DNA from: Nemertoderma westbladi
Taxonomy: Eukaryota; Animalia; Xenacoelomorpha
Length of the DNA: 64,000 nucleotides
Direction: 5' to 3'
Assembly: GCA_032718475.1 (NCBI GenBank)
Contig: JAUCBJ010003174.1
Span: 1-64,000, forward strand
The position numbers were made by a program, and so were the translations under genes. The notes under the pieces were generated by a model. That model was not told the DNA's origin and searched no databases. It saw only the letters and a program-made list of their open reading frames with translations. This document shows positions 7,387 to 64,000 of this stretch, piece after piece; within the stretch, counting starts at the first letter, position 1; every line of letters starts with the position of its first letter.

Positions 7387-7567
7387 GATGAGTGGATGAA
7401 CTGTCAGCGAAACTGGTTGTATCTCGAATCGATATTCAGCGCCCCTGATATCCAAAGACAATTGCCTGCCGAAGCCAAGATGTTTATGCAGGTGGATAAA
7501 AGCTGGAAGGATATAATGAGAAAAACGAACAGATTGCCCAACGCAATGCGAGCCGCAACCCTACCTG
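7387..7567 (+). CDS. DNAH6: Dynein heavy chain exon 2 in window
   Basis: ttcag|GAT GAG TGG...CCT G|gtaagt; DEWMNCQRNWLYLESIFSAPDIQRQLPAEAKMFMQVDKSWKDIMRK...PNAMRAATLP, very close to recalled human DNAH6. Confidence 0.92.
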
Positions 7568-8441
7568 GTAAGTCTAACTCAATGCGAGCCGCAACCCTAC
7601 CTGGTAAGTCTAACTCAATGCGAGCCGCAACCCTACCTGGTAAGTCTAACTCAATGCGAGCCGCAACCCTACCTGGTAAGTCTAACTCAATGCGAGCTGC
7701 AACCCTACCTGGTAAGTCTAACTCAATGCGAGCTGCAACCCTACCTGGTAAGTCTAACTCAATGCGAGCCGCAACCCTACCTGGTAAGTCTAACTCAATG
7801 CGAGCTGCAACCCTACCTGGTAAGGCAACCCTACCTGGTAAGTCTAACTCAATGCGAGCTGCAACCCTACCTGGTAAGTCTAACTCAATGCGAGCCGCAA
7901 CCCTACCTGGTAAGTCTAACTCAATGCGAGCTGCAACCCTACCTGGTAAGTCTAACTCAATGCGAGCCGCAACCCTACCTGGTAAGTCTAACTCAATGCG
8001 AGCCGCAACCCTACCTGGTAAGTCTAACTCAATGCGAGCTGCAACCCTACCTGGTAAGTCTAACTCAATGCGAGCCGCAACCCTACCTGGTAAGTCTAAC
8101 TCAATGCGAGCTGCAACCCTACCTGGTAAGTCTAACTCAATGCGAGCTGCAACCCTACCTGGTAAGTCTAACTCAATGCGAGCCGCAACCCTACCTGGTA
8201 AGTCTAACTCAATGCGAGCTGCAACCCTACCTGGTAAGTCTAACTCAATGCGAGCCGCAACCCTACCTGGTAAGTCTAACTCAATGCGAGCTGCAACCCT
8301 ACCTGGTAAGTCTAACTCAATGCGAGCTGCAACCCTACCTGGTAAGTCTAACTCAATGCGAGCTGCAACCCTACCTGGTAAGTCTAACTCAATGCGAGTT
8401 GCAACCCTACCTGGTAAGTCTAACTCAATGCGAGCTGCAAC
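7544..8441 (+). repeat. 36-bp tandem array of the exon-2 donor junction, ~25 copies
   Basis: Unit aatgcgagccgcaaccctacctg|gtaagtctaactc = 23 nt of exon + 13 nt of intron; one shortened unit near 7825. Confidence 0.97.
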
Positions 8442-8587
8442 CGCTCACATAGTTTGCCACGCTTTGCCGCCCTTCGCCACTCATAGTTTTGTAGAATTTA
8501 TAACAGAGATATCTGAACAGATTGAATGATACTTGTACTCTTTATTTTATGCCTAACAGTTATTTATTAAAATTATATTTATTATAG

Positions 8588-8730
8588 GACTTTTGGAAAC
8601 ATTTAAGACCAACAACACATTGTTAGACCAAATAATGAAATGTTTGGAGCAATATCTGGAATCCAAGCGGGCTTTGTTTCCGAGATTCTATTTCCTTTCT
8701 AACGACGAATTACTCGAGATTCTAGCTCAG
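8588..8730 (+). CDS. DNAH6: Dynein heavy chain exon 3 in window
   Basis: tatag|GA CTT TTG GAA...GCT CAG|gtctgt; GLLETFKTNNTLLDQIMKCLEQYLESKRALFPRFYFLSNDELLEILAQ contains the canonical dynein FPRFYFLSNDELLEIL motif; phases match both neighbours. Confidence 0.93.
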
Positions 8731-8830
8731 GTCTGTAACTTTTTGTTTAGGTCTTTAACCTTTCCGCTCAGGTTTGAAACTTTTTCACTTTGGTCTGTAA
8801 CTTTTCCACTCAGGTTTGTAACTTTTCTTC
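8726..8830 (+). repeat. Degenerate ~21-bp repeats of the exon-3 donor, ~5 copies, filling most of a 113-bp intron
   Basis: ctcag|gtctgtaactttt, tttag|gtctttaacctt, ctcag|gtttgaaacttt, ctttg|gtctgtaactttt, ctcag|gtttgtaactttt. Confidence 0.75.
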
Positions 8831-8843
8831 CCTTTGTTTATAG

Positions 8844-9036
8844 ACCAGGAACCCCCACGCCGTTCAGCCTCATCTACGTAAATGTTTCGACGCCATCGCG
8901 CTGCTGGAGTTCGGCGGCGGTGATGCCGGGGAAACTGGTGGCGATCAGCTGGCCAAGACGGTTTCGAACGACATCCTCGCCATGATCAGTCCTGAGAAAG
9001 AGAGAGTCAGTCTGGGGAAGGGGTTGAAAGCACGGG
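8844..9036 (+). CDS. DNAH6: Dynein heavy chain exon 4 in window
   Basis: tatag|ACC AGG AAC CCC...GCA CGG G|gtgcgt; TRNPHAVQPHLRKCFDAIALLEF...DILAMISPEKERVSLGKGLKAR. Confidence 0.92.
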
Positions 9037-12000
9037 GTGCGTATTGGTTGCTATGGGAGGGGGTTGAAAGCACGGGGTGCGTATTGGTTGCTATGGGAGG
9101 GGGTTGAAAGCACGGGGTGCGTATTGGTTGCTATGGGAGGGGGTTGAAAGCACGAGGTGCGTATTGGTTGCTATGGGAGGGGGTTGAAAGCACGAGGTGC
9201 GTATTGGTTGCTATGGGAGGGGGTTGAAAGCACGGGGTGCGTATTGGTTGCTATGGGAGGGGGTTGAAAGCACGAGGTGCGTATTGGTTGCTATGGGAAG
9301 GGGTTGAAAGCACGGGGTGCGTATTGGTTGCTATGGGAGGGGGTTGAAAGCACGGGGTGCGTATTGGTTGCTATGGGAGGGGGTTGAAAGCACGAGGTGC
9401 GTATTGGTTGCTATGGGAGGGGGTTGAAAGCACGGGGTGCGTATTGGTTGCTATGGGAGGGGGTTGAAAGCACGGGGTGCGTATTGGTTGCTATGGGAGG
9501 GGGTTGAAAGCACGAGGTGCGTATTGGTTGCTATGGGAAGGGGTTGAAAGCACGGGGTGCGTATTGGTTGCTATGGGAGGGGGTTGAAAGCACGAGGTGC
9601 GTATTGGTTGCTATGGGAAGGGGTTGAAAGCACGGGGTGCGTATTGGTTGCTATGGGAGGGGGTTGAAAGCACGGGGTGCGTATTGGTTGCTATGGGAGG
9701 GGGTTGAAAGCACGAGGTGCGTATTGGTTGCTATGGGAGGGGGTTGAAAGCACGGGGTGCGTATTGGTTGCTATGGGAGGGGGTTGAAAGCACGAGGTGC
9801 GTATTGGTTGCTATGGGAAGGGGTTGAAAGCACGGGGTGCGTATTGGTTGCTATGGGAGGGGGTTGAAAGCACGGGGTGCGTATTGGTTGCTATGGGAAG
9901 GGGTTGAAAGCACGAGGTGCGTATTGGTTGCTATGGGAGGGGGTTGAAAGCACGGGGTGCGTATTGGTTGCTATGGGAGGGGGTTGAAAGCACGAGGTGC
10001 GTATTGGTTGCTATGGGAGGGGGTTGAAAGCACGGGGTGCGTATTGGTTGCTATGGGAGGGGGTTGAAAGCACGAGGTGCGTATTGGTTGCTATGGGAGG
10101 GGGTTGAAAGCACGAGGTGCGTATTGGTTGCTATGGGAGGGGGTTGAAAGCACGGGGTGCGTATTGGTTGCTATGGGAGGGGGTTGAAAGCACGAGGTGC
10201 GTATTGGTTGCTATGGGAGGGGGTTGAAAGCACGGGGTGCGTATTGGTTGCTATGGGAGGGGGTTGAAAGCACGAGGTGAGTATTGGTTGCTATGGGAGG
10301 GGGTTGAAAGCACGGGGTGCGTATTGGTTGCTATGGGAGGGGGTTGAAAGCACGGGGTGCGTATTGGTTGCTATGGGAGGGGGTTGAAAGCACGAGGTGC
10401 GTATTGGTTGCTATGGGAGGGGGTTGAAAGCACGGGGTGCGTATTGGTTGCTATGGGAGGGGGTTGAAAGCACGAGGTGAGTATTGGTTGCTATGGTAGG
10501 GGGTTGAAAGCACGGGGTGCGTATTGGTTGCTATGGGAAGGGGTTGAAAGCACGAGGTGCGTATTGGTTGGTATGGGAGGGGGTTGAAAGCACGGGGTGC
10601 GTATTGGTTGCTATGGGAGGGGGTTGAAAGCACGGGGTGCGTATTGGTTGCTATGGGAAGGGGTTGAAAGCACGGGGTGCGTATTGGTTGCTATGGGAGG
10701 GGGTTGAAAGTACGGGGTGCGTATTGGTTGCTATGGGAGGGGGTTGAAAGCACGGGGTGCGTATTGGTTGCTATGGGAGGGGGTTGAAAGCACGAGGTGC
10801 GTATTGGTTGCTATGGGAGGGGGTTGAAAGCACGGGGTGCGTATTGGTTGCTATGGGAGGGGGTTGAAAGCACGGGGTGCGTATTGGTTGCTATGGGAGG
10901 GGGTTGAAAGCACGAGGTGCGTATTGGTTGCTATGGGAGGGGGTTGAAAGCACGGGGTGCGTATTGGTTGCTATGGGAGGGGGTTGAAAGCACGAGGTGC
11001 GTATTGGTTGCTATGGGAGGGGGTTGAAAGCACGGGGTGCGTATTGGTTGCTATGGGAAGGGGTTGAAAGCACGAGGTGCGTATTGGTTGGTATGGGAGG
11101 GGGTTGAAAGCACGGGGTGCGTATTGGTTGCTATGGGAGGGGGTTGAAAGCACGAGGTGCGTATTGGTTGCTATGGGAAGGGGTTGAAAGCACGGGGTGC
11201 GTATTGGTTGCTATGGGAGGGGGTTGAAAGCACGGGGTGCGTATTGGTTGCTATGGGAAGGGGTTGAAAGCACGAGGTGCGTATTGGTTGGTATGGGAGG
11301 GGGTTGAAAGCACGGGGTGCGTATTGGTTGCTATGGGAGGGGGTTGAAAGCACGAGGTGCGTATTGGTTGCTATGGGAGGGGGTTGAAAGCACGGGGTGG
11401 GTATTGGTTGCTATGGGAGGGGGTTGAAAGCACGAGGTGCGTATTGGTTGCTATGGGAGGGGGTTGAAAGCACGAGGTGCGTATTGGTTGCTATGGGAGG
11501 GGGTTGAAAGCACGGGGTGGGTATTGGTTGCTATGGGAGGGGGTTGAAAGCACGAGGTGCGTATTGGTTGCTATGGGAGGGGGTTGAAAGCACGGGGTGC
11601 GTATTGGTTGCTATGGGAGGGGGTTGAAAGCACGAGGTGAGTATTGGTTGCTATGGTAGGGGGTTGAAAGCACGGGGTGCGTATTGGTTGCTATGGTAGG
11701 GGGTTGAAAGCACGGGGTGCGTATTGGTTGCTATGGGAGGGGGTTGAAAGCACGAGGTGCGTATTGGTTGCTATGGGAGGGGGTTGAAAGCACGGGGTGC
11801 GTATTGGTTGCTATGGGAGGGGGTTGAAAGCACGAGGTGAGTATTGGTTGCTATGGTAGGGGGTTGAAAGCACGGGGTGCGTATTGGTTGCTATGGGAAG
11901 GGGTTGAAAGCACGAGGTGCGTATTGGTTGCTATGGGAGGGGGTTGAAAGCACGGGGTGCGTATTGGTTGCTATGGGAGGGGGTTGAAAGCACGGGGTGC

Positions 12001-15000
12001 GTATTGGTTGCTATGGGAGGGGGTTGAAAGCACGAGGTGCGTATTGGTTGCTATGGGAGGGGGTTGAAAGCACGAGGTGCGTATTGGTTGCTATGGGAGG
12101 GGGTTGAAAGCACGGGGTGCGTATTGGTTGCTATGGGAGGGGGTTGAAAGCACGGGGTGCGTATTGGTTGCTATGGGAGGGGGTTGAAAGCACGGGGTGC
12201 GTATTGGTTGCTATGGGAGGGGGTTGAAAGCACGGGGTGCGTATTGGTTGCTATGGGAGGGGGTTGAAAGCACGGGGTGCGTATTGGTTGCTATGGGAGG
12301 GGGTTGAAAGCACGAGGTGCGTATTGGTTGCTATGGGAGGGGGTTGAAAGCACGGGGTGCGTATTGGTTGCTATGGGAGGGGGTTGAAAGCACGGGGTGC
12401 GTATTGGTTGCTATGGGAGGGGGTTGAAAGCACGAGGTGCGTATTGGTTGCTATGGGAGGGGGTTGAAAGCACGGGGTGCGTATTGGTTGCTATGGGAGG
12501 GGGTTGAAAGCACGGGGTGCGTATTGGTTGCTATGGGAGGGGGTTGAAAGCACGGGGTGCGTATTGGTTGCTATGGGAGGGGGTTGAAAGCACGGGGTGC
12601 GTATTGGTTGCTATGGGAGGGGGTTGAAAGCACGGGGTGCGTATTGGTTGCTATGGGAGGGGGTTGAAAGCACGAGGTGCGTATTGGTTGCTATGGGAGG
12701 GGGTTGAAAGCACGAGGTGCGTATTGGTTGGTATGGGAGGGGGTTGAAAGCACGAGGTGCGTATTGGTTGCTATGGGAGGGGGTTGAAAGCACGAGGTGC
12801 GTATTGGTTGCTATGGGAGGGGGTTGAAAGCACGAGGTGCGTATTGGTTGCTATGGGAGGGGGTTGAAAGCACGAGGTGCGTATTGGTTGCTATGGGAGG
12901 GGGTTGAAAGCACGAGGTGCGTATTGGTTGCTATGGGAGGGGGTTGAAAGCACGAGGTGCGTATTGGTTGCTATGGGAGGGGGTTGAAAGCACGAGGTGC
13001 GTATTGGTTGCTATGGGAAGGGGTTGAAAGCACGAGGTGCGTATTGGTTGCTATGGGAGGGGGTTGAAAGCACGAGGTGCGTATTGGTTGCTATGGGAGG
13101 GGGTTGAAAGCACGAGGTGCGTATTGGTTGCTATGGGAGGGGGTTGAAAGCACGAGGTGCGTATTGGTTGCTATGGGAGGGGGTTGAAAGCACGAGGTGC
13201 GTATTGGTTGCTATGGGAGGGGGTTGAAAGCACGAGGTGCGTATTGGTTGCTATGGGAGGGGGTTGAAAGCACGAGGTGCGTATTGGTTGCTATGGGAGG
13301 GGGTTGAAAGCACGAGGTGCGTATTGGTTGCTATGGGAGGGGGTTGAAAGCACGAGGTGCGTATTGGTTGCTATGGGAGGGGGTTGAAAGCACGAGGTGC
13401 GTATTGGTTGCTATGGGAGGGGGTTGAAAGCACGAGGTGCGTATTGGTTGCTATGGGAGGGGGTTGAAAGCACGAGGTGCGTATTGGTTGCTATGGGAGG
13501 GGGTTGAAAGCACGGGGTGCGTATTGGTTGCTATGGGAGGGGGTTGAAAGCACGAGGTGCGTATTGGTTGCTATGGGAGGGGGTTGAAAGCACGAGGTGC
13601 GTATTGGTTGCTATGGGAGGGGGTTGAAAGCACGAGGTGCGTATTGGTTGCTATGGGAGGGGGTTGAAAGCACGAGGTGCGTATTGGTTGCTATGGGAGG
13701 GGGTTGAAAGCACGAGGTGCGTATTGGTTGCTATGGGAAGGGGTTGAAAGCACGAGGTGCGTATTGGTTGCTATGGGAGGGGGTTGAAAGCACGAGGTGC
13801 GTATTGGTTGCTATGGAAGGGGGTTGAAAGCACGAGGTGCGTATTGGTTGCTATGGGAGGGGGTTGAAAGCACGAGGTGCGTATTGGTTGCTATGGGAGA
13901 GGGTTGAAAGCACGAGGTGAGTATTGGTTGCTATGGGAGGGGGTTGAAAGCACGGGGTGCGTATTGGTTGGTATGGGAGGGGGTTGAAAGCACGAGGTGC
14001 GTATTGGTTGGTATGGGAAGGGGTTGAAAGCACAGGGTGCGTGTTGGTTGCTATGGGAAGGGGTTGAAAGCACGGGGTGCGTATTGGTTGCTATGGGAGG
14101 GGGTTGAAAGCACAGGGTGCGTATTGGTTGCTATGGGAAGGGGTTGAAAGCACGAGGTGCGTATTGGTTGGTATGGGAAGGGGTTGAAAGCACGAGGTGC
14201 GTATTGGTTGCTATGGAAGGGGGTTGAAAGCACGAGGTGAGTATTGGTTGCTATGGAAGGGGGTTGAAAGTACGAGGTGAGTATTGGTTGCTATGGGAGG
14301 GGGTTGAAAGCACGGTGTGCGTATTGGTTGGTATGGGAAGGGGTTGAAAGCACGAGGTGCGTATTGGTTGCGATGGTAGGGGGTTGAAAGCACGGGGTGC
14401 GTATTGGTTGCTATGGGAGGGGGTTGAAAGCACGGGGTGCGTATTGGTTGCTATGGGAAGGGGTTGAAAGCACGGGGTGCGTATTGGTTGGTATGGGAGG
14501 GGCTTGAAAGCACAAGGTGCGTATTGGTTGCTATGGGAGGGGGTTGAAAGCACGAGGTGCGTATTGGTTGCTATGGGAAGGGGTTGAAAGCACGGGGTGC
14601 GTATTGGTTGCTATGGGAGGGGCTTTAAAGCACGAGGTGAGTATTGGTTGCTATGGGAGGGGGTTGAAAGCACGGGGTGCGTATTGGTTGGTATGGGAAG
14701 GGGTTGAAAGCACGAGGTGCGTATTGGTTGCGATGGTAGGGGGTTGAAAGCACGGGGTGCGTATTGGTTGCTATGGGAGGGGGTTGAAAGCACGATGTGC
14801 GTATTGGTTCTATGGGAGGGGGTTGAAAGCACGAGGTGCGTAAGCCTATTGGTTGCTATGGGTGGGTGTTGAAGGGAAGATGTGAGTATTAGTTGCTATG
14901 GAAATGGGTTAAAGGGAAGAGGTTGTATTGGTTGTTATACGAAGGGGTTAAATGGACGTGGTGCATATTGGTTGCTATGGAAATGGGTTGAAGAGAAGAA

Positions 15001-15045
15001 GTGCGTATTGTTTGCTATGGGATGGGGTTAAATGCATATTGGTTG
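9013..15045 (+). repeat. 40-bp tandem array of the exon-4 donor junction, ~146 regular copies plus a few degenerate distal copies
   Basis: Unit tgggagggggttgaaagcacg(g/a)g|gtgcgtattggttgcta; makes up nearly all of the 6-kb intron; variants increase after ~13850 and copies are degenerate from ~14840. Confidence 0.97.
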
Positions 15046-15085: not shown

Positions 15086-15216
15086 GAAATGTTGAAGATT
15101 GGCTTGGTAAAGTTGAAGAGTCGATGGTTGTCTCACTAAGGAAATTAACGAAACTCTCGTTAACAGATTACATGATGAGAAGCCGGGAAGAGTGGTTAAT
15201 ACTCCATCCATCCCAG
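15086..15216 (+). CDS. DNAH6: Dynein heavy chain exon 5 in window (last one found)
   Basis: tgtag|GA AAT GTT GAA GAT TGG...TCC CAG|gtaaag; GNVEDWLGKVEESMVVSLRKL...HPSQ continues LKAR|G in phase 1. Confidence 0.92.
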
Positions 15217-16309
15217 GTAAAGTGGTTAATAGTCCATCCATCCCAGTTAAACTGGTTAATACTCCATCCATCCCAGGTAATGTGGTTAATACTCCATCCA
15301 TCCCAGGTAAATTGGTTAATACTCCATCCATCCCAGGTAAACTGGTTAATACTCCATCCATCCCAGGTAAAGTGGTTAATACTCCATCCATCCCAGGTAA
15401 ATTGGTTAATACTCCATCCATCCCAGGTAAAGTGGTTAATAGTCCATCCATCCCAGTTAAACTGGTTAATAATCCATCCATCCCAGGTAAAGTGGTTTAA
15501 TACTCCATCCATCCCAGGTAAATTGGTTAATATTCCATCCATCCCAGGTAAAGTGGTTAATAGTCCATCCATCCCAGTTAAACTGGTTAATACTCCCTCC
15601 ATCCCAGGTAAACTGGTTAATACTCCATCCATCCCAGGTAAACGGGTTAATACTCCATCCATCCCAGGTAAAGTGGTTAATACTCCATCCATCCCAGGTA
15701 AAGTGGTTAATACTCCATCCATCCCAGGTAAACTGGTTAATAGTCCATCCATCCCAGGTAAATTGGTTAATACTCCATCCATCCCAGGTAAAGTGGTTAA
15801 TAGTCTATCCATCCCAGTTAAACTGGTTAATACTCCATCCATCCCAGGTAAACTGGTTAATAGTCCATCCATCCCAGGTAAATTGGTTAATACTCCATCC
15901 ATCCCAGTTAAACTGGTTAATGCTCCATCCATCCCAGGTAAAGTGGTTAATACTCCATCCATCCCAGGTAAAGTGGTTAATAGTCCATCCATCCCAGGTA
16001 AATTGGTTAATACTCCATCCATCCCAGGTAAAGTGGTTAATACTCCATCCATCCCAGATAAAGTGGTTAATAGTCCGTTCATCCCAGGTAAATTGGTTAA
16101 TACTCCATCCATCCCAGGTAAAGTGGTTAATACTCCATCCATCCCAGGTAAAGTGGTTAATACTCCATCCATACCAGGTAAAGTGGTTAATAGTCTATCC
16201 ATCCCAGGTAAACTGGTTAATAGTCCATCCATCCCAGGTAAAGTGGTTAATAGTCCATCCATCCCAGTTAAACTGGTTAATACTCCCTCCATCCCAGGTA
16301 AACTGGTTA
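15191..16309 (+). repeat. 30-bp tandem array of the exon-5 donor junction, ~37 copies
   Basis: Unit agtggttaatactccatccatcccag|gtaa; one 1-bp insertion near 15497; ends abruptly at the HPS6-like ORF. Confidence 0.97.
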
Positions 16310-19320: not shown

Positions 19321-19435
19321 ACCGACTGTTAAACATTTAAGGTGAGGGAGACTATAGTCGTTATTGACTCTCTTTAATTGTTTAGGTTATAGAAGCAGTA
19401 GGTCGTGGTTAAGCTCTGCTAAAATAGCGACCCAC

Positions 19436-19756: not shown

Positions 19757-19856
19757 CTAATTTGAAAAAAAAGCGATAAAAATAATGGAAAATGGCTATA
19801 GAGGCTGAACAATATATTTAATTGAACTTACATCATTCTCTATAAATAGAACTTAC

Positions 19857-20382
19857 GTCATTATTTAATCCGTTGGCTAATCGAAACAAAACCGAACCGC
19901 AAGTCGGCGAAACCCACAACTCAAAGAGAAGGGAGGCGTTGCCCACGGCAACTACACGCAGACAATCCTCGACGCTGATTGGCGGAAAGGAAGGTAATTT
20001 GGTCTCCTTAGGATGGCTGGTATCCAGCCGTAACCATAGAGACAAGGACATTCCCTTGTCGCGCAGAGGCCAAGTCAGGTTCTTAGTTAAAGGCAGTAGC
20101 AGACAGGCAGGAGGGCAGCCAATGGCGACAGCCGGTAGAATCCCCTCGGAGGGGGTTGCTGGGGGGTTTATAGGAAACCGAAAGTAATACTCGGGAATAA
20201 CTTTAATATTTGTTACTACGTGAAGAGCCAATGAAACCACTTTATCGGCGCTGCAACCGGGAGTGTTTATCCAATTAACGATGGATGCCCATTGGTCGAC
20301 GCTAATTGTCACTTCGGTTAAACGACCAATCAAATCACAAAGAGCGTTTTGGACAGATTCGTTTGTTTCTCCAATCATAAAT
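19857..20382 (-). CDS. LYST: LYST exon
   Basis: ttag|A TTT ATG...AAT GAC|gtaagt; WPLRDKGMSLSLWL and VGNASLLFELWVSP resemble the LYST ConA-like start; splice phases are consistent. Confidence 0.8.
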
Positions 20383-21078: not shown

Positions 21079-21164
21079 CTGAAATTGAAAGGGAAAATTA
21101 AAATGTTAAAACAAATCAATGGAAATATTAATAATTATAAACAGTGTCTCGCACTATTCGAATA

Positions 21165-21796
21165 GATATCACCTACTCTCTGATTCACATGGACCTATAG
21201 GGCAGTACTGTTCGTACAGACATCACCTACTCTCTGATTCACATAGACCTATAGAGCAGTACTGTTCGTACAGACATCACCTACTCTCTGATTCACATAG
21301 ATGATAGACCTATAGGGCAGTACTGTTCGTACAGATATAACCTACTCTCTGATTCACATAGACCTATAGGGCAGTACTGTTCGTACAGACATCACCTACT
21401 CTCTGATTCACATAGACCTATAGAGCAGTACTGTTCGTACAGACATCACCTACTCTCTGATTCACATAGACCTATAGAGCAGTACTGTTCGTACAGACAT
21501 CACCTACTCTCTGATTCACATAGACCTATAGAGCAGTACTGTTCGTACAGACATCACCTACTCTCTGATTCACATAGACCTATAGAGCAGTACTGTTCGT
21601 ACAGACATCACCTACTCTCTGATTCACATAGACCTATAGAGCAGTACTGTTCGTACAGACATCACCTACTCTCTGATTCACATAGACCTATAGAGCAGTA
21701 CTGTTCGTACAGACATCACCTACTCTCTGATTCCAGATTCACATAGACCTATAGAGCAGTACTGTTCGTACAGACATCACCTACTCTCTGATTCAC
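21165..21796 (-). repeat. 54-bp tandem array of a LYST donor junction, ~11-12 copies
   Basis: Minus-strand unit GTGAATCAGAGA|gtaggtgatgtctgtacgaacagtactgctctataggtctat = 12 nt of exon + 42 nt of intron. Confidence 0.93.
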
Positions 21797-21959
21797 AATC
21801 TCCATCCCACCCGGAATCGAATCCTCCGGAATCCGCCCGCTCGCTTTCCGATGAACAACTTTCCGCCGGAGTTCCGTCGTCGACATCTCTTGATTCAGTT
21901 GATCGAGTTATCCTCTCGTTGTCATGGGAACGACATTCATCCTGGTTACTCCTGTGGCA
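21785..21959 (-). CDS. LYST: LYST exon
   Basis: cgcag|TGC CAC...GAG A|gtaggt; acidic segment ending GFDSGWDGDCESE; phase 1 matches the next exon. Confidence 0.75.
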
Positions 21960-45686: not shown

Positions 45687-48600
45687 CCGCACAAGAAAGT
45701 CCCTGGCGGTTCCTTGTGACCAACAATACCTCCATTCTACTTCCCTTATCGTGTGTTCCACCGCGACCCCCCACTCCACGAGAACTCCCTCCCATTGCGG
45801 AACGCCAACTTCAGTTGCTCAATGAGCGAGATTTAATTGGGGGCTTTTTGCAGCTGACTGAACCCGTTGTTTCTAAGTGGCTAAAGGGAATCGCAGGATA
45901 CGGCCGCGATACTGACATTTTTGTGAAGCGATCGGAGTTCCAAGTAGCCTATTGCTTTTCTTATTCCATAACGACGAATATACAGGTTTCACTTTTGTCA
46001 AAGAAGCAACTTACGTTGCAGGATTCCTGCCCTGATAAAGGTAATCCCAGAGTTAGACATCACAGGTGATATTTTAGAGGAGGATAATATATTTATTTAC
46101 CCAAGCCCTAACTCGTGGTGGATTACAACTTGCTCCTCATGCCTCATCACCTCTTATGATGGACCATGGTGTCGGCTGCGTGGGTGGATGCTTTACCTAA
46201 TGGAACTATACGGTGCTACAAACAACTAACTCAAGTAGTGCACATGATTGCGGTCTATTACGGTATCTCCCCACTGCCACCAATAGCTGCTTGCCGTATC
46301 CTAGCAAACACCCTTCTTAATCGAGTACAAAAGCGATCTATGGAAGAAACGGATAGGCAGAAACGGCGCGACACGCATTCTGGCGATACAGCCGCACAAA
46401 CTAAATTAGTAAATTAAATTCCTCCGAATAACGGGAAGTGGACAAAATAAATAAATATTATTGTATACCAGGCCGAAATATGATATCGTTTCGTATCACG
46501 TCAAACTGTGGACTGAGATATTTCCGAACCAGGAGAGACTCATAAAAACTGAGATATTTCTCTACAGAGGGTCACACGTTGAGTCCGCGCCCGGAAAGAC
46601 TCATAAACACAGATATTTCTCTACAGGGGGTCACACGTTGAGTCCGCGCCCGGAGAGACTCATAAAAACTGAGATATATATATAAAGGAGTCTACAGGGG
46701 AGTCACTCGTTTAATTTTCCGGTTTATGTTTAATATTCGGGATTGATACTTAATCAATTTATTAATTAATAATTTCAATATCTTTTTTTTATTAATAATA
46801 ATAATCAATAATTTGATTGAAGATTTTTTAATTAATGAAGAGCCCGTATCGGGGTCATTGATGTGTTTTCAGTCTGGGGTGGGGAATATTGGGTCGGCTA
46901 TCGTAATAAATAATAAAGTAATAACATAGAGTACCTACTAGTAATATAAAGTAAGTACCTAATAGTAATATAAAGTAAGTACATACCTAATAGTAATATA
47001 AAGTAAGTACCTAATAGTAATATAAAGTACCTAATAATAATAGCCCTATAAAGTAATAATATCAGAAAGGCAGTTGGGGGGGGGGGGGGGGGGGGGGGTA
47101 CCTGGAACCTGGCTTGACTTAGGATAGTAAATGACCAGAGATAAAGAATATAGAGAGAGGGAGGTCCATGTATATTGCTGTATTGTGGGGTGAGACAAAT
47201 ATACCGTTAGTTGAATCCGATATCATCTGTGTAACAACATTCCCCTACCAATAGGGGTACTGTTCACATCGTTTTTTATGTCGCACAATGTACTAACTCA
47301 ACACGGTCGTTCTAGACTATAATGAATAGTTAGTACACAACACTCGTCGTCCCCTTTGTTACAAGCCTCGCTGCGCTCGTCCTTTATTTCTTGACACCAA
47401 AATTTATTATGTTACTAATAATTACGATTGTGTACTAAATTTCATACAAATCCTTTGATAACAATGTCTATAACAGTATAAAGCAATACCAAACCAATGG
47501 ACTTCGCTAGCGAAGTCGGATGAAGGGGTGTGCCAGTCCTGTAGTATAGTAGTCCTTGGTTGCAACACATTCAGAATCGCAAAGATTTACTATCACAGGC
47601 AATAGGCCTACCTATATAGCAGTACGAAAGTCGGTAAAGTGAAACATTTTAGTTCTGTTCTGATACCCTTTCGACATGCAGATTTGCAGAGTACCGGAAG
47701 CTCCATTGATAGTGGAATACAGTACTGCAGTAAAGTCAGTATAGCAGTAGGCCTAGTACTATCATACAGTCAGGGTATGTCAGTACAGCACCGTTACTAT
47801 TGGTCGTAGGTGGGCTTGGCAATCAAGAAACTCTGTAGTGTACCGGTACTAGGCCACAGGAAGAGTTGGCCTACTGACTTTGTTTACTGTTTTTCGACAA
47901 TCTTTTAATTACAGGCCTACCGGTAGGCCTAGGCCTAATGCTTTTATTGTTAATCTCAACCGCGCACTTTCGGTATTGTGTTTATTAGTGTTTATGTTAC
48001 CGCGCAACTTCTGTCGTTCTGTGTCATGTTAATTTTACCACGCACTCTTCGCAATTACGCGCTCTGTACCAGTACCAGTACCATGTACATGTACAGTAGT
48101 TGGTTTGGGTGATTTTAATTACCGTTAATTTGTAATTGTCTGAATGTCTGATTGGTACAGCAGTGAATGTAATACATTCAGTTACTGTGTACTGGTAGGC
48201 CTTAATTTTGGTACTCACCTGGAATAGCTGGAATAATCAGGGAATTTCACTTTTTCTTTAAATTTCAGGGAATTCTTGTAAAAAATTGACACATTAGGGA
48301 ACATTTTCTATATAGAGGATACAGGAACAGGACATTGTGTCATGATGAGCGAAAATATGTAAAATTTTATCTGCTAGCTTCGCTCGCCATTCAATTTTCT
48401 CACATCTCTAGATATGGACACTTTGGACTCATTGGACTCATAAATATGGACACTATCATTGCTTCTTTGTCATCAGTAATTGGTCTGTTGTGGTAGTTTG
48501 CCGATATGCGATATGTAACTTTTTTTTGTAACCAATCGGAAATCTGCTTAATTTAGTTTATTATTTTTTAAACCAATCAGAAACCTTGTCTAGGGTAGGA

Positions 48601-52647: not shown

Positions 52648-54230
52648 ATGGCCGCTTTCAGCCTCAGAAGGGAATTGAATCACTTTATCTCCCACCGATG
52701 TTATGAAAGAAACCCGAGATTATAATTCGCCATTCTTTATCGTTCCAACTGATTCCATTGCGGAAATAAAAGAAACACAGGAATGTATTCCCGATGTGGA
52801 TATATCTGATACTGCGATAGACCTGTTGGAGGATGTTAATGACGTCAGTTCCGGTAGACACTCGAATACTGATGGTGGTCCTTCTGTACTGAGTGTCGAG
52901 GAATGGGACGCGAGGTTTGGGACGCGTTGGAACCGAAGCCGAAAGGACTTCTAGTGGGGAAAGTCCGACCTCAGTAGCTGAGGAAGAAGAATTAGCTGAA
53001 GTGGTTTCTGGTTCTTCTACAGTTGAGTCGCAATTAAATGTCGTCTTGACTTCCAGATCGGTTGCCCCTTTCGAACCACGACGTGGTTTACGAACCAGAA
53101 AGGAGGTCCCCGATTACGCCAACTGCAACTGCCCAATAAAATCGTTTAGCAACTTTATATACATCGACCTTTACCGACGTACACCGAGTTGCAGTGTCCG
53201 GTACACGGGGAGTTAACTTCATACCGAATACCGAAACCACCTGTGGTGGAAGGAACCGGGCAGCAGAACAATTCCGTCGTGTTTGGAGATAAATAAATCC
53301 CCTTTTCATAAGAAAGGGGTGTTTACCAAGGTCGACTTGAATCCTGGAACATTATTTGGTCCTCATGATGGAGAGAGGAAACCAGGTAAACCGAAACCCG
53401 GGAAGACCGACGGTTACAGCTGGTTGATGCTGGACGATGAGGGTAAATTCTTTACTATCAGCGGGAGATGGGAGTTCAATTCAATTTGGATGCGCTACGT
53501 AAACTGAGCCAAATTGGAACAGGAACAAACCCTTTGTGGGTCCCAGTTGGGAGAGGATATATATTAGCGGGTCTGTAAACCAGTTGCAGCCGGTACGGAA
53601 CTCCTTACTTGGTAAGGAACGGGATACGCCAAAGAATTGGGAATAGTTACCAAACAATCGTAGGCTAAGAAATTGGGGATGAAAGCTCTGGAGGACGGGA
53701 TGGTTTTATGTACTGGATGTAGCAGTTCCCAGTCTGATAATCAGGAGGCAATTCTTAGACACCAGAGTAATCGAGGTGGATGTGCTGAGAGAAAGAGATT
53801 AGATTTAGTTCACAATAAGAGTTTACATAAATTCCCGTGCGAACATTGCGACGTCGTCTACACGGTGGAATATTTTCTTGTTTCCCATTTAAAACGGAAA
53901 CACAATGAACCCGGCTCTACTCCAACAGGTTCGGGTTCCAACGTTCCTACTGATCCCAAGAAACGTTCCAGTTCAGATGAACCAACCAATAGTCTGGGAT
54001 GTAGTTCTTGTGGGAAAGTGTTTGCAAGGAAATATAATCTAATGAAACACGAACGCGCTCACTCTGGCGAGAAACCGTTCAGCTGCCGAATCTGCTCTAA
54101 ATCTTTCTCTGATAGCTCAGCATTAATACGCCACCATGCACCAACGCACGCACACTGGAGAAAAACCGTACGGTTGTACAGAGTGTGGTATCGAGAGAAG
54201 GGAAGACTTTAGTCGCTCGAATTGATTAAT
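52648..54230 (+). pseudogene. PRDM9/PRDM7-like intronless pseudogene (SSXRD-like, PR/SET, C2H2 fingers)
   Basis: GLRTRKEV (SSXRD-like), GTLFGPHDG...GYSWLM...WMRYVN*A...EQ...IY*RVCKPV..GTELLTW*GTGYAKELG, then [34 protein letters not shown]; several stops and frameshifts. Confidence 0.85.
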
Positions 54231-55300: not shown

Positions 55301-55763
55301 ATTTGAGTAAAGTATTTGCAATCGGGGAGCGATTGCTAGCTAGATTAAAGTTAATGTGCTTTTCAACAATAACATATACGTATGCTTGTTGTCAATTAAT
55401 TATAATAACAAAACAATTATTATTAATTATAGATGAAGCAAAGGATGGCTTACATGGTCTTGGGTTTATGGTACGTTATATTACAACAGATACTTGTATT
55501 CAGTAGTGGCAACAATGGGTCAAAAACACGATGGGCACGCGCGCCGCCCAATCGCACAGTTTGGTACACCATATCACCCACGAAAACCAAATTAGGGTAA
55601 TTAAAAGTTAATACGCGGAATTAGAGGTCATTTACGGGAAAGTTTAATGGAAAGGCTATAACTACAGGCACGAGCAAGACGTGCTTGCATATAAAATATA
55701 ATAATAATAGCAGTAATATAAAGTATAATATAATCTATAAAAAATAACGTTTGATTCACTAAC

Positions 55764-58288
55764 CGTTTTGCGTTGGAACTCCCTTCTATGTCGCTTCCAA
55801 ATTCACTTCCGGACCAGATGGTTTCGGATTCCGTGAAGTACGAATCGGTGGCGCTGAGCTGCGACACTGTTCCGTCGCTGTCATCGCCGCTGGAAACCTC
55901 GTGGGAATCCACAGCAACGCGATCCATAGCAACGCGACGAGTCTGGTCGGAGGCAGGAACCCGCGACTGTTTGGCGGGTCGCCGCGGTTTCCGGCGACCT
56001 CGACGAGCCAACATGAATACGGGCTGGCTGAAGTCCTCGTTGAATCGAACCTTGGGAGTAGTGAGGATGTCTATAAAGCAGTCGGTGACCTGGAGACGGA
56101 GCATCTTCGCCATGGCAACCGAACGCAGTCCCCCGTCCGCCGAGAGAATGAGGATTTTAAAGAGTCGGAGGATCACAGCGCGGAGTTTTCCGATGAAAAC
56201 GAGTTTAATGAAGTGGAGTGGCATTACCATGGCAGCGAGGTCGTGTTGGATGGTGGGGGAAACGAGAACGCAAGGGAGGGAACGAAATAACGAGTGGATC
56301 ACAGGATGACGGGGTGGGTGGGGGGACGTTCCGTCGTGCTGATGAAGGGGGTTGGAACGGTGTTTGGATGACGAGAGCGGATCGGTTAGACGTAGCAACG
56401 CCGGTCGGTAGACCATGTAGAAGAGGGAGGCGTTGAAAGTATCGCTCGCTCGGGATACTAAGTATATGAGGTGGTAGGAGACCTCGGTGACGATGAGATC
56501 CTCACCGGGACTGTCTTCGTCGCCCTCTAACGGGAGGTTGGGGAACAGTAAGGCGGCGTAACCGTCGGCGACCGCGTCCCACCGCCGGTGTCGGTGATCC
56601 GATACCGTGGATTCGTAGGCGGAGTCGGAGTCGGACATGGTTCCGGTGCAGACGCCACACAGCCGGGCCCCGGGTCCGCCCGCCCCGCCGCCCAGACCCT
56701 CCAGGACCAGCTGGGTGACCACCGCCAGGACTCTGCAGACCCGGGCGTCGTTGCCTAGCAATGGGAGTAGGGAGAGGAGGGGGAGGAGTACCGAGTCTGG
56801 GGCCGCGCAGCAGCAGACGCCGCAACGGGAGAGCGCCTCAACGGCGAGTAGCGCGGTGGCGCAGGGGTCAGCCGGCGGAGTAGCGAACCTGTCGGCCGGT
56901 GCAGTGGTGAACTTGTCAGCCGGCGCAGTAGCGAACCTGTCAGCCGACACCGTGGCGCACCGGTCGGCCGGCGCAGTGGCGCAACGGTCGGCCGGCGCAG
57001 CAGTGGCTATCAGTGTGAGGAAACAGTCACAGATCGATGCGACCGAACATTTCGCACCGCCGCCGGGTGGCACAATCGACGATGTTGTCCCCCCGCTTGG
57101 GGGAGCATCCCGCAAGCTGCTGCATACATTGTGGTGGTGGTGGTGGTGTGATGAGAAATCGCACCGGCGGTGGAACCGTTTCATACACGTCATCGCGTGG
57201 ATGTAGTCTACCTTGAAGGCTTTTAGTGACGTGACGAGGGAACTCAGGGATGACATGAGAGTGCGCTTGAGATGCTGTAGGTTCTGTACGAAACCATGCG
57301 CCTTGTCGTTTGGATTTCTGCGATCCGAATTAATCGGAACTGTATCCGGTGGATATCGTAGGTTACAGATCGAATCGCTCTCTCGAATATCTTTCGACGT
57401 AAAAGCGAATATCCTGGTGAATGCATCCGGTGACCTAATCGGTGGATCTGGCGAGGTAAGTTTCGGGGTTGTAGATCCACTCCTTGAACGTTTGCGGCTT
57501 GCGTTTGTCAACTCTTGCGTTGTGTGAGTTTCCGATTCAAAAGATGGGAGATTTACAATTTCTACCTCCTGCTCAATTGATGTTGGACTTTTTGGCTCTT
57601 TTGATGTTGGACTTTTTGGCTCTTTTGATGTTGGACTTTTTGGCTCATTCGATGTTGGACTTTGTGGCTCATTTGATGTTGGACTTTGTGGTTCATTTGA
57701 TGTTGGACTTTTAGGCTCTGTTGATGTTGGACTTTTAGGCTCTTTTGATGTTGGACTTTTTGGCTCTTTTGATGTTGGACTTTTTGGCTCATTTGATGTT
57801 GGACTTTGTGGCTCATTTGATGTTGGACTTTGTGGCTCATTTGATGTTGGACTTTTAGGCTCTGTTGATGTTGGACTTTTAGGCTCTTCTGATGTTGGAC
57901 TTTTTGGCTCTTTTGATGTTGGACTTTTAGGCTCTGTTGATCTTGAACTCTGTCGTTCTTTCTTGAGTGTGGAACTTTGAGACTCTAATGCTGATAGCGT
58001 TGAGACTTCTGAATCCACTTGAGTAGTGGGAATTGGAACTTCGTGGGGTCTGGGACTTTCCCCTGTTGCTGATGTAAGATTCGTGTCTGGGTGCCTATCT
58101 GTCTCCCTTAATGGTCCAACAAGGCGTTCATTAACAAGGCTGTCTGACATATTCAAATCATTTGCGACATCGGAAGTAGAGGTGAGACTGCCAACATCAA
58201 CGTGACTCTCATCCGATACTCTTGTAGATTTATGTAAGGCAATCTGGTTGATGGATTGTATACAAGTCATAACGAGAGTGAGACCGCC
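55764..58288 (-). CDS. LYST: LYST large exon (2525 nt) with internal 24-bp coding repeats
   Basis: cacag|GGC GGT CTC...AAA CG|gttagt; CGVCCC..P..VL.PLL and RWDA motifs as in LYST; phase 2 matches the exon at 25670, defining a 30-kb intron. Confidence 0.85.
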
Positions 58289-59106
58289 CTGTGAAACAAA
58301 ATGGGATAACTTCAACAAAGGGTGGTCAAATATTACATAATAAATATTAATTTGCTTAATTACTTAATGTAATTATTGGCTTACGTGTTGTAATTTACGG
58401 TTAATTTCTTTCAAAAACAAAACAGTGAATATCATTTAGAACAATTTTTAAACACAAAAGGCCTTTTAAAAAAGGCTATTATTATGTTTTTATACAAAAT
58501 AACTATATTTGTTGCAAAGAAAACATTTAGGCCAATAACAAATTCCCTCAGACACAGAGATGGATTTTTTGAAGTAAAATTAATTGCTCTCAGAGACGTG
58601 GTTTTTTCACATGCTCTTTCACATGAAACAAGCGAATACGGAAAAAAAATTCTGAGTCGCCAACCCCGGCCCATTAACCCAGTGAGCGATGTCAATTACA
58701 AGTAGTTTTCGATGAAATACTTGATTTTAGCCACCATTTTTTGAATAAAAGCAGTGCAATCTTCATTCCTGAAACGTAAAAGGGCAATTTAATGGAATAA
58801 AAAACGCGAAATCGCGCAAAGGTCCGCGTCTACTAACGCATGAACTGTCTCCTTGAATGACTTACTACCAATCGTAATACCAAAAAATATTCATTCACCA
58901 AGAGATTGAACACGGGGTACCGTCGCTCTACTAAAGTCAAACGCTCTACCAACTTCGCCACTGCGCCGTATGAAGCCTTACAAAACTAAAACACAACAGG
59001 AAATTAAGAACAACACCAACAGCGGGTGCCTCTTGATGTCTCGCTATCCCGGACCTAATAATAATATAAACTATGGATTTAACTGAAAATATTGATTGTA
59101 TTTTAC

Positions 59107-59273
59107 CTGTAAGTTGAATTCGTGGAAAAGGTCCATTCCGGAAAGCAGTTGGGCGGGACCGGTTTGTTTAGGAGGTGCCTGTAACACAGCACACATTAGC
59201 TCCAACATACCCTGCATAGTCTCGGCCCATATCAACAGCCAATCACTGGCTTCCTTGTAATCGAAACCCGTTT
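59107..59273 (-). CDS. LYST: LYST exon
   Basis: catag|AA ACG...TTA CAG|gtaaaa; QGMLELMCAVLQA...GMDLFHEF parallels recalled EGVLQILICCLQSA...AMDLVQEF. Confidence 0.85.
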
Positions 59274-59409
59274 CTATGGAGACAAAAATATCTTTTTCAG
59301 ATTATTTAACAAAATTATAACATAATAATCAAAATTAATAAGTATACAAATAACTTTCAACAAAACAATTTTCTATATCTAGTGTTTGTATATCAATGTA
59401 CGTCCTTAC

Positions 59410-59754
59410 CTAAGGTCTTGCCATATGGTATCCACCTACCTGAATATAACATATTGACAGAACTTAATTTGGTTACAAATTCCATCAAAACTGCCATCAC
59501 AGTCTTTATCGTGTCCAATTCGATAAGTTCGAGATTCACTATTGTCAAAGACAGTAAAATTCTCAAAACCATTCGTTGGGTGGGGTAAACATCTCTAGCG
59601 GCAAGCGTGTCACTGTCGGAAGTGACGTCATCAATTTTACTAAGAATCTTGGCGATTTTCGGTAATATCCTTTGGGCCACGTCATTATCACGACGGGTTG
59701 AGTAGTCATAGCAACATATCTTCTCCAGAACCGATAGCATTACTTGGCACAATT
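59410..59754 (-). CDS. LYST: LYST exon (most 5' in window)
   Basis: tctag|AA TTG TGC...TTA G|gtaagg; LCQVMLSVLEKICCYD and QRMVLRILL parallel recalled LCHVLLSLLEKVCKFD and QRMLFRTVL. Confidence 0.88.
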
Positions 59755-59844
59755 CTAGAATAATACAAACATATCGTAGTATAAAACGTAGAAGGCTTTA
59801 ACGTTCAACCGTGAAGTTCAACGTTAAATAAATAATGTGTTAAA

Positions 59845-62800
59845 CTAACAATGGGGGACCGACACACTAACCAATGGGAGATCGATAAACTAACCAATTA
59901 GGGACCGGACCGATAACCTAACCAATGGGAGATCGATAAAATAACTAATGGGAGGTTGATAAACTAACCAATGGGAGATCGATAAATTAACCAATGGGAG
60001 ATCGATAAATTAACCAATGGGAGATCGATAAATTAACCAATGGGAGATCGATAAAATAACCAATGGGAGATCGATAAACTAACCAATAGGAGATCGATAA
60101 ATTAACCAATGGGAGATCGATAAACTAACCAATGGGAGATCGATAAACTAACCAATGGGAGATCGATAAACTAACCAATGGTAGATCGATAAACTAACCA
60201 ATGGGAGTTCGATAAAGTAACCAATAGGAGATCGATAAACTAACCAATGGGAGATCGATAAACTAACCAATGGGAGATCGATAAAATAACCAATGAGTGT
60301 TCGATAAAGTAACCAATAGGAGATCGATAAACTAACCAATGGTAGATCGATGAACTAACCAATGGGAGATCGATAAACTAACCAATGGGAGATCGATAAA
60401 CTAACCAATGGGAGTTCGATAAACTAACCAATGGGAGATCGATAAACTAACCAATGAGAGATCGATAAACTAACCAATGGGAGTTCGATAAACTAACCAA
60501 TGGGAGATCGATAAACTAACCAATGGGAGATCGATAAACTAACCAATGGGAGATCGATAAACTAACCAATGAGAGTTCGATAAAGTAACCAATAGGAGAT
60601 CGATAAACTAACCAATGGTAGATCGATGAACTAACCAATGGGAGATCGATAAACTAACCAATGGGAGTTCGATAAACTAACCAATGGGAGATCGATAAAC
60701 TAACCAATGAGAGATCGATGAACTAACCAATGGGAGATCGATAAACTAACCAATGGGAGATCGATAAACTAACCAATGGGAGATCGATAAACTAACCAAT
60801 GAGAGTTCGATAAAGTAACCAATGGTAGATCGATAAACTAACCAATGGGAGATCGATAAACTAACCAATGGGAGATCGATAAACTAACCAATGGGAGATC
60901 GATAAACTAACCAATGGGAGATCGATAAACTAACCAATGGGAGATCGATAAAGTAACCAATGGGAGATCGATAAACTAACCAATGGGAGATCGATAAACT
61001 AACCAATGGGAGATCGATAAACTAACCAATGGGAGATCGATAAACTAACCAATGGGAGATCGATAAACTAACCAATGGGAGTTCGATAAACTAACCAATG
61101 GGAGATCGATAAACTAACCAATGGAAGATCGATAAACTAACCAATGGGAGTTCGATAAACTAACCAATGGGAGATCGATAAACTAACCAATGGGAGATCG
61201 ATAAACTAACCAATGGGAGATCGATAAACTAACCAATGGGAGATCGATAAACTAACCAATGGGAGTTCGATAAACTAACCAATGGGAGATCGATAAACTA
61301 ACCAATGGGAGATCGATAAACTAACCAATGGGAGTTCGATAAACTAACCAATGGGAGATCGATAAACTAACCAATGAGAGTTCGATAAAGTAACCAATAG
61401 GAGATCGATAAACTAACCAATGGTAGATCGATGAACTAACCAATGGGAGATCGATAAAATAACCAATGGGAGTTCGATAAACTAACCAATGGGAGATCGA
61501 TAAACTAACCAATGGGAGATCGATGAACTAACCAATGGGAGATCGATAAACTAACCAATGGGAGATCGATAAACTAACCAATGGTAGATCGATAAACTAA
61601 CCAATGGGAGATCGATAAACTAACCAATGGGAGATCGATAAACTAACCAATGAGAGATCGATAAACTAACCAATGGGAGATCGATAAACTAACCAATGAG
61701 AGTTCGATAAAGTAACCAATGGTAGATCGATAAACTAACCAATGGGAGATCGATAAACTAACCAATGGGAGATCGATAAACTAACCAATGGGAGATCGAT
61801 AAACTAACCAATGGGAGATCGATAAACTAACCAATAGGAGATCGATAAACTAACCAATGGGAGATCGATAAACTAACCAATGGGAGATCGATAAACTAAC
61901 CAATGGGAGATCGATAAACTAACCAATGGGAGATCGATAAACTAACCAATGGGAGATCGATAAACTAACCAATGGGAGATCGATAAACTAACCAATGAGA
62001 GTTCGATAAAGTAACCAATAGGAGATCGATAAACTAACCAATGGGAGATCGATGAACTAACCAATGGGAGATCGATAAACTAACCAATGGGAGTTCGATA
62101 AACTAACCAATGGGAGATCGATAAACTAACCAATGGGAGATCGATAAAGTAACCAATGGGAGATCGATAAACTAACCAATGGGAGATCGATAAACTAACC
62201 AATAGGAGATCGATAAACTAACCAATGGGAGATCGATAAACTAACCAATGGGAGATCGATAAACTAACCAATGGGAGATCGATAAACTAACCAATGGGAG
62301 ATCGATAAACTAACCAATAGGAGATCGATAAACTAACCAATAGGAGATCGATAAACTAACCAATGGGAGATCGATAAACTAACCAATGGGAGTTCGATAA
62401 ACTAACCAATGGGAGATCGATAAACTAACCAATGGGAGATCGATAAACTAACCAATAGGAGATCGATAAACTAACCAATGGGAGATCGATAAACTAACCA
62501 ATAGGAGATCGATAAACTAACCAATGGGAGATCGATAAACTAACCAATGGGAGATCGATAAACTAACCAATAGGAGATCGATAAACTACCCAATGGGAGA
62601 TCGATAAACTAACCAATGGGAGATCGATAAACTAACCAATAGGAGATCGATAAACTAACCAATGGGAGATCGATAAACTAACCAATGGGAGTTCGATAAA
62701 CTAACCAATGGGAGATCGATAAACTAACCAATGGGAGATCGATAAACTAACCAATGGGAGATCGATAAACTAACCAATGGGAGATCGATAAACTAACCAA

Positions 62801-64000
62801 TGGGAGATCGATAAACTAACCAATGAGAGTTCGATAAAGTAACCAATAGGAGATCGATAAACTAACCAATGGGAGATCGATGAACTAACCAATGGGAGAT
62901 CGATAAACTAACCAATGGGAGATCGATGAACTAACCAATGGGAGATCGATAAACTAACCAATGGGAGTTCGATAAACTAACCAATGGGAGATCGATAAAC
63001 TAACCAATGGGAGATCGATAAACTAACCAATGAGAGTTCGATAAAGTAACCAATGGTAGATCGATAAACTAACCAATGGGAGATCGATAAAGTAAACAAT
63101 GGGAGATCGATAAACTAACCAATGGGAGATCGATAAACTAACCAATGGGAGATCGATAAACTAACCAATGGGAGATCGATAAACTAAACAATGGGAGATC
63201 GATAAACTAACCAATGGGAGATCGATAAACTAACCAATGGGAGATCGATGAACTAACCAATGGGAGATCGATAAACTAACCAATGGGAGATCGATGAACT
63301 AACCAATGGGAGATCGATAAACTAACCAATGGGAGATCGATAAACTAACCAATGAGAGTTCGATAAAGTAACCAATAGGAGATCGATAAACTAACCAATG
63401 GGAGATCGATGAACTAACCAATGGGAGATCGATAAACTAACCAATGGGAGATCGATGAACTAACCAATGGGAGATCGATAAACTAACCAATGGGAGTTCG
63501 ATAAACTAACCAATGGGAGATCGATAAACTAACCAATGGGAGATCGATAAACTAACCAATAGGAGATCGATAAACTAACCAATGGGAGATCGATAAACTA
63601 ACCAATGGGAGTTCGATAAACTAACCAATGGGAGATCGATAAACTAACCAATGGGAGATCGATAAACTAACCAATGGGAGATCGATAAACTAACCAATGA
63701 GAGTTCGATAAAGTAACCAATAGGAGATCGATAAACTAACCAATGGGAGTTCGATAAACTAACCAATGGGAGATCGATAAACTAACCAATAGGAGATCGA
63801 TAAACTAACCAATAGGAGATCGATAAACTAACCAATGGGAGATCGATAAACTAACCAATGGGAGATCGATGAACTAACCAATGGGAGATCGATAAACTAA
63901 CCAATGGGAGTTCGATAAACTAACCAATGGGAGATCGATAAACTAACCAATGGGAGATCGATAAACTAACCAATGGGAGATCGATGAACTAACCAATGGG
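59845..64000 (-). repeat. 23-bp tandem array (~180 copies, runs off the window), probable donor-junction array of the upstream LYST exon
   Basis: Minus-strand unit TATCGATCTCCCATTG|gttagtt; degenerate copies lie at the acceptor-side end. Confidence 0.93.

What the first reader, a model, noticed from the sequence alone, without database searches (positions are those of the whole stretch)
59845..64000. Testable prediction: the 23-bp array encodes the end of an exon outside the window
Seen: the minus-strand unit reads CGA TCT CCC ATT G|gttagt, and the next exon starts in phase 1 with AA TTG TGC. Joining gives R-S-P-I-E-L-C-Q-V-M-L-S-V-L-E-K, matching recalled human LYST N-S-P-F-D-L-C-H-V-L-L-S-L-L-E-K. 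The array should therefore end, beyond 64000, in a real LYST exon finishing ...TCTCCCATTG. This is an independent test of the donor-array model.
Basis: inference. Interest (0 to 1): 0.7.

Follow-up and report, generated by a model that had tools for sequence, protein, structure and literature searches.

The report
Splice-donor minisatellite; exon prediction confirmed
A 23-base unit repeated at least 180 times in an intron of an animal gene copies the end of the preceding exon, as spliced RNA from this species shows, and likely its splice signal too; the RNA seen uses none of the visible copies, as in a known and probably harmless kind of repeat described in human and lancelet genes.

Summary
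The prediction holds. A spliced RNA contig (run X4) joins exon 59754-59440 to an upstream exon ending TCTCCCATTG, exactly as predicted (about 1.5e-5 by chance). One detail fails: the preceding codon is Ala, not Arg. The exon's 11-mer is in none of the 181 visible units, so the donor used lies outside the window. The 23-bp unit aligns to the exon end at 16 of 19 columns and starts with a GTTAGT donor: a donor-spanning minisatellite of the F7-IVS7 / amphioxus 'mirage' kind, likely seeded by a 6-bp microhomology. Read-through gives an immediate stop. Donor contexts are recopied at 7 of 15 donors and 0 of 15 acceptors in this window (p=0.006, one window). Not shown: that the array physically abuts that exon (no genome held), and the name LYST (six searches gave only helical-solenoid hints and a sub-threshold BEACH-family match). 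The scan has reported such arrays before in other genomes (23 findings). Known kind; unusual only in size and density.

The parts
59841..64000 (-). 23-bp tandem array (at least 181 units, open at 64000); unit = donor GTTAG + diverged copy of the last ~19 nt of the upstream exon
   Evidence: exon end
59755..59849 (-). 95-nt unique intron remainder: last donor-like start GTTAGTTTAAC, AT-rich body, TTCTAG acceptor; likely the intron before amplification
   Evidence: acceptor supported by the RNA contig leaving the genome at 59755; ancestral role inferred
59440..59754 (-). 315-nt exon, phase 1 to phase 1 (P0001); spliced to an upstream exon outside the window
59107..59273 (-). next exon of the same gene
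   Evidence: RNA joints 59273-59440 and 58287-59106
55764..58288 (-). large exon of the same gene, ending at an ordinary single GTTAGT donor
   Evidence: RNA cover checked only for 57960-58287; rest from ORF 55631-58363 and inspection
21153..21797 (-). 54-bp donor-spanning array in the same gene (13 exon nt + 41 intron nt, 12 units)
   Evidence: exon boundary inferred from frame, no RNA
19810..19863 (-). two-copy donor duplication (25-nt spacing)
   Evidence: boundary inferred
7540..8442 (+). 36-bp donor-spanning array after a dynein heavy chain 6-like exon (donor at 7567)
8725..8843 (+). 113-nt dynein intron made of about five degenerate 21-bp units, each starting GT (6 exon nt shared)
9015..15036 (+). 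40-bp donor-spanning array, 150 units (donor at 9036)
15191..16309 (+). 30-bp donor-spanning array, 37 units (donor at 15216)

Best explanation
The array is a minisatellite whose unit copies the end of the upstream exon of this gene and, likely, its 5' splice site, and the spliced RNA seen uses none of the visible copies. Shown: the exon ends TCTCCCATTG and is joined to exon 59754; the unit matches that end at 16 of 19 aligned columns and begins GTTAG. Inferred: a slip between TTTAAC at exon -19..-14 and TTTAAC at intron +6..+11 duplicated 24 nt across the boundary; a 23-nt variant (one deletion, two substitutions) was then amplified by slippage or unequal exchange; the 95 nt before the acceptor is the old intron. 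Inferred: the spliceosome takes the first, exon-adjacent donor (as shown for human F7), and any use of a later copy would read Gly-stop and likely be removed by nonsense-mediated decay, so the array can grow with little cost and needs no function.
For: Spliced contig with predicted junction; 10-nt exact suffix, 6.4e-7 per register, 1.5e-5 over 23 registers, or about 1 in 72 if the residues S-P-I are granted (my arithmetic). Exon 11-mer in 0 of 181 units, 10-mer in 118. 107 exact copies of exon-end+GTTAGT 16-mer. The same gene uses a plain GTTAGT donor at 55764 (boundary inferred). Four dynein donors fixed by homology show the same build with the exon in view. Degenerate units sit at the acceptor-side edge in the 23- and 40-bp arrays. 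Read-through translation G-stop. No sign that GT is kept better than other columns: 12 of 23 columns are invariant, +5 G is changed in 22 of 178 units. Precedent: PMC1557585, PMC3087553.
Against: The exon-array junction in DNA was not seen (no such loose end among the 6 listed). One RNA run only, as contigs, which drop rare forms, so low-level use of later donors is not excluded; at 85% likeness X4 had faint cover of the array edge (depth 24). The microhomology case rests on one base (post-array TTTAAC equals the exon, the unit has TTTATC); partial end copies mimic microhomology. The exon's -25..-20 bases also resemble the unit start, which fits rival 1. Assembly near arrays may be unreliable: no dynein exon follows 15216 in the remaining 49 kb.
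Confidence: 0.8

Rival explanations
1. The whole unit is exon-derived: the last 25 nt of the exon, which begin with GT, were duplicated and the copy's start became the donor, creating this intron or replacing its old donor (Rogers-type intron gain).
For: The full 23-nt unit aligns end to end with exon -25..-1, 17 identities with 2 gaps. Intron gain from such repeats is proposed for amphioxus globins (PMC3087553).
Against: Needs more changes (2 gaps, 4 substitutions) than the exon+intron model (1 gap, 2 substitutions). The 36-, 40- and 54-bp arrays are clear exon+intron composites. The 95-nt AT-rich remainder with its acceptor is not exon-like.
Confidence: 0.12
2. The array is a maintained regulatory device: many decoy donors bind U1 snRNP or divert part of the transcripts into stop-containing forms, tuning gene output with array length.
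For: 178 of 181 units keep GT, 156 the full GTTAGT; every later donor would give a stop-containing mRNA; repeats do affect splicing in humans (PMC10078293, search listing only).
Against: GT is no better kept than other columns; no joint to a later donor was listed; F7 and amphioxus cases show normal splicing; units differ in length and frame from intron to intron.
Confidence: 0.05
3. The unit came from this exon end, but the array no longer abuts the exon (insertion, rearrangement or mis-assembly in between), or it is a dispersed satellite.
For: Far end unseen. In DNA run X2 a 31-mer of the array has depth 18,000 against 23.8 for the unique flank while the window holds 90 copies: roughly 750 copies of the word, so either a far longer array or other loci (rough; contig depth is not a copy number). 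One 36-bp array in the window ends in exon-derived sequence, showing later rearrangement.
Against: Five other arrays in the window start exactly at their exon; DNA contigs of X1 and X2 join the unique intron remainder to the array edge.
Confidence: 0.07

Closest known systems
Human F7 intron 7 37-bp VNTR (Borensztajn et al. 2006, PMC1557585; abstract, Introduction and Discussion read), with the IFI6/6-16, CBS IVS13, LMNB2 and PDGF cases cited in its Introduction
   Same: First unit spans the exon-intron boundary; identical pseudo-donors follow; only the most upstream donor (F7, LMNB2, PDGF) or the first few (6-16, CBS) are used.
   Different: At least 181 units here against 5-25 there; unit is mostly exon-derived (about 18 of 23 nt against 4 of 37 in F7); several such arrays within one 64-kb window; usage here rests on one contig, not on mutational tests.
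Amphioxus 'mirage' minisatellites, Adh3 and globins BflGb6/BflGb9 (Ebner et al. 2010, PMC3087553; passages read)
   Same: Tandem duplications of exon-intron boundaries, 10-72 bp units in Adh3, several per gene, regular splicing unaffected, concerted evolution with degenerate edge units.
   Different: In amphioxus both 5' and 3' boundaries are duplicated; here 7 of 15 donors and 0 of 15 acceptors. Globin clusters have 3-6 units; here 12-181. Length polymorphism not tested here.

Membership tests
Donor-spanning minisatellite (F7 IVS7 type / mirage) | Head-to-tail array of a 10-100+ bp unit at the 5' side of an intron | tested here: met
   23 bp x 180.7 up to 95 nt before the acceptor
Donor-spanning minisatellite (F7 IVS7 type / mirage) | Unit contains the exon's 3' end followed by a donor motif | tested here: met
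   10-nt exact, 16 of 19 aligned, then GTTAGT
Donor-spanning minisatellite (F7 IVS7 type / mirage) | First unit physically spans the authentic exon-intron boundary | not testable with these tools
   Beyond 64000; no genome held; metagenome pattern scan 0 hits. Met for four dynein donors in the window
Donor-spanning minisatellite (F7 IVS7 type / mirage) | Mature RNA mainly uses the authentic upstream donor | tested here: met
   One contig of one run (X4) carries the exon-specific 11-mer found in 0 of 181 units; rare forms not visible
Donor-spanning minisatellite (F7 IVS7 type / mirage) | Copy-number polymorphism | not testable with these tools
   Short-read contigs collapse the array
LYST (BEACH family) | Sequence similarity to LYST orthologues | tested here: inconclusive
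No hit (could not reach proteins over 2000 or 1595 aa); Atlas gave only ARM/HEAT-type look-alikes; PDB none relevant.
LYST (BEACH family) | Alpha-solenoid N-terminus followed by ConA-like region | tested here: inconclusive
   DUF4704 (Neurobeachin/BDCP solenoid) E=0.025, below cut-off, on exon 20855-21076; single-sequence fold of the next exon pLDDT 38.5, unusable
LYST (BEACH family) | C-terminal PH-BEACH-WD40 | tested here: inconclusive
   No such Pfam hit among 119 of 137 listed ORFs scanned; that part of the gene does not appear to be in the window

The most novel reading that the evidence does not exclude
This animal has a genome-wide, donor-specific duplication habit: microhomology-seeded copies of exon ends expand into arrays of hundreds to perhaps over a thousand intact 5' splice sites, supply a fifth of the DNA in gene-dense regions, and spare acceptors because first-come splicing forgives extra donors but not extra acceptors. 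It would be a natural test bed for how the spliceosome picks the first of 150+ identical donors and a route of intron growth.
Probability: 0.3. Interest if true: 0.55.

Novelty: new member of a known kind. Interest (0 to 1): 0.33.

Why it matters
It validates the donor-array reading by a blind prediction: an unseen exon end was read correctly from an intronic repeat. In practice such arrays can be used to locate exon ends across assembly breaks and they mislead gene predictors. Biologically the class is known; what could matter is scale (at least 181 copies, six arrays filling 12.9 kb or 20% of the window) and the donor-versus-acceptor bias, which bears on 5' splice-site choice and intron growth if it holds genome-wide.

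Tried and rejected
Own genome: none held, so the adjacent window could not be read. No DNA loose end leading into the upstream exon among the 6 loose ends listed; this is no evidence either way, since only the array's edge was laid. Metagenome pattern scan for the exon end: 0. LYST confirmation failed; the fold model was too poor to search. The 55-bp (27490-30212), 53-bp (19038-19320) and 29-bp (3216-4774) arrays do not copy a splice site and were rejected as donor arrays. My unit splitter lost register after 8 units in the 36-bp array; the count of 24 copies comes. One donor (exon starting 24245) was left out of the tally because its position was ambiguous; the acceptor tally has 15 sites including that exon's. 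Nine of the 14 in-window donors belong to the minus-strand gene and only two of them have RNA support. Selection for intact GT: not supported. Literature searches found no paper on a donor-over-acceptor bias or on arrays of over 100 donors; the library lacks most subscription journals, and I read no supplements. Earlier notes by place and by sequence: none.

Full report
Observation. The window ends in a 23-bp tandem array, 59841-64000, 180.7 copies, 94% matches. On the minus strand the commonest unit is GTTAGTTTATCGATCTCCCATTG; of 181 units, 178 start with GT and 156 with GTTAGT. After the last, degenerate units come 95 unique AT-rich bases ending TTCTAG, then an exon at 59754-59440 that begins in phase 1.

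Test of the prediction. No genome is held for the window, so I used sequencing runs. Six were listed, none on record as RNA. Laid on 57960-59900, run X4 covered only exons, and its 1886-nt contig joined 58287 to 59106 and 59273 to 59440 across CT..AC ends with no mismatches: it is spliced RNA of the same organism label. That contig leaves the genome at 59755 and runs on for about 1,000 nt. Its loose end, read on the gene strand, ends TCTCCCATTG and gives A-E-V-T-F-N-A-S-P-I-E-L-C-Q across the junction; the joined frame through the RNA-supported exons is open for 280 codons. The predicted 10 bases and phase are therefore right. Chance is 6.4e-7 for one register and 1.5e-5 over all 23; if one grants the residues S-P-I, about 1 in 72. 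The predicted Arg is wrong: the exon has GCG where the unit has CGA.

Which donor is used. The exon's last 10 bases occur in 118 units, its last 11 in none, and no 12-mer of the exon end lies anywhere in the window. So the exon is outside the window and the RNA was not spliced at any visible copy. No joint to a unit was listed. This is one run, and contigs drop rare forms. Using a later donor would read Gly-stop at once.

Origin (inferred). The unit aligns to the exon end at 16 of 19 columns. The exon has TTTAAC at -19..-14; the sequence after the last unit reads GTTAG-TTTAAC. These hexamers would lie 24 nt apart in an array-free allele, so a slip between them gives a 24-nt exon+intron duplicate, one deletion and two substitutions from today's unit. 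Two edge units keep the exon's G at -11 that the bulk unit has lost. Against this, the argument hangs on a base or two, and the exon's -25..-20 bases also resemble the unit's start, so a purely exonic duplication that made its own donor stays open (rival 1).

Context. The window holds five exons of a dynein heavy chain 6-like gene on the plus strand and about ten exons of the minus-strand gene. I asked, for each splice site, whether its own context is recopied in the adjoining intron. Donors: 7 of 15 (24, 2, 37, 36, 11 and 1 extra copies within up to 1.5 kb, plus this array); acceptors: 0 of 15; shuffled controls 0-0.05. Fisher two-sided p=0.006; 6 of 14 against 0 of 14 without this array, p=0.016; arrays of ten or more copies 5 of 15 against 0 of 15, p=0.04. 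One ambiguous donor was left out, most minus-strand boundaries are inferred from frame, and the sites come from two genes in one window. Three other arrays (29, 53, 55 bp) copy no splice site. The six donor arrays fill 12.9 kb, 20% of the window. GT is not better conserved than other columns of the unit, so I see no sign of selection on the copies.

What is not shown. The DNA junction between exon and array was not seen. In run X2 an array 31-mer has depth 18,000 against 23.8 for the flank, and the window has 90 copies of it: a rough hint of some 1,500 units, at this locus or also elsewhere. The name LYST could not be confirmed: no hits (two of them could not reach full-length proteins), helical-repeat look-alikes only, and a sub-threshold DUF4704 match (E=0.025). 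It rests on recall; the test of the prediction does not depend on it.

Comparison. Minisatellites whose first unit spans an exon-intron boundary are known. In human F7 only the most upstream of 5-9 identical donors is used, by position rather than strength; 6-16, CBS, LMNB2 and PDGF are similar (PMC1557585: abstract, Introduction, Discussion). Amphioxus 'mirages' duplicate both donor and acceptor boundaries without disturbing splicing (PMC3087553, passages), which argues against the donor bias being a general law. The scan's own notes hold 23 such findings in at least 14 genomes, one reporting the same donor bias in a probable annelid (unchecked AI notes, not support).

Verdict. Observation confirmed, prediction confirmed, class known. 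It works like, and by the testable features is, an F7-type donor-spanning minisatellite; its size and the local density are the only unusual points. Interest 0.33.

Noticed in passing
window 15171-17636, minus strand: An 822-codon open frame: about 440 unique residues run straight into and through the 30-bp dynein donor array on the opposite strand (LPGMDGVLTT-type repeats, one frame slip) up to the dynein exon. No Pfam family for the unique part. If real, one array is intron on one strand and coding repeat on the other; it could also mark a mis-join.
   Followed up: partly
window 15217-19436: The dynein gene (plus) and the LYST-like gene (minus) face each other and both seem to stop mid-protein here: no dynein exon after 15216 in the remaining 49 kb although queries covered the motor domain, and no BEACH hit. 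Interleaved giant introns or an assembly join.
   Followed up: partly
window 35537-42233, minus strand: BEL/Pao-type LTR retrotransposon with two long open frames (505 and 1732 codons; Peptidase_A17, DUF5641, integrase zinc domain) inside the 25-kb intron.
   Followed up: partly
window 31295-32530 and 44455-45690: A 1236-bp direct repeat, 100% identical, flanking the retrotransposon region at some distance: young LTR pair or recent duplication.
   Followed up: no
window 26299-27489: About 1.2-kb near-perfect palindrome (foldback, 99%) directly after the 55-bp array.
   Followed up: no
window 53217-54209, plus strand: Nested PR-domain C2H2 zinc-finger gene fragments in the large intron (PRDM2_PR E=1.5e-9, zf-C2H2).
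   Followed up: no
window 8731-8843, plus strand: A whole 113-nt intron made of about five 21-bp units that begin GT and in part end CAG: a candidate for an intron built from a tandem array.
   Followed up: partly
window 57577-57949, minus strand: Coding 24-bp repeat (EPKSPTS-type, 15.5 copies) inside the large exon.
   Followed up: no
window 7540-8442 and 15191-16309: The 36- and 30-bp donor units are multiples of three and open in the dynein frame, so use of later donors would add in-frame peptide repeats; no RNA was laid there.
   Followed up: no
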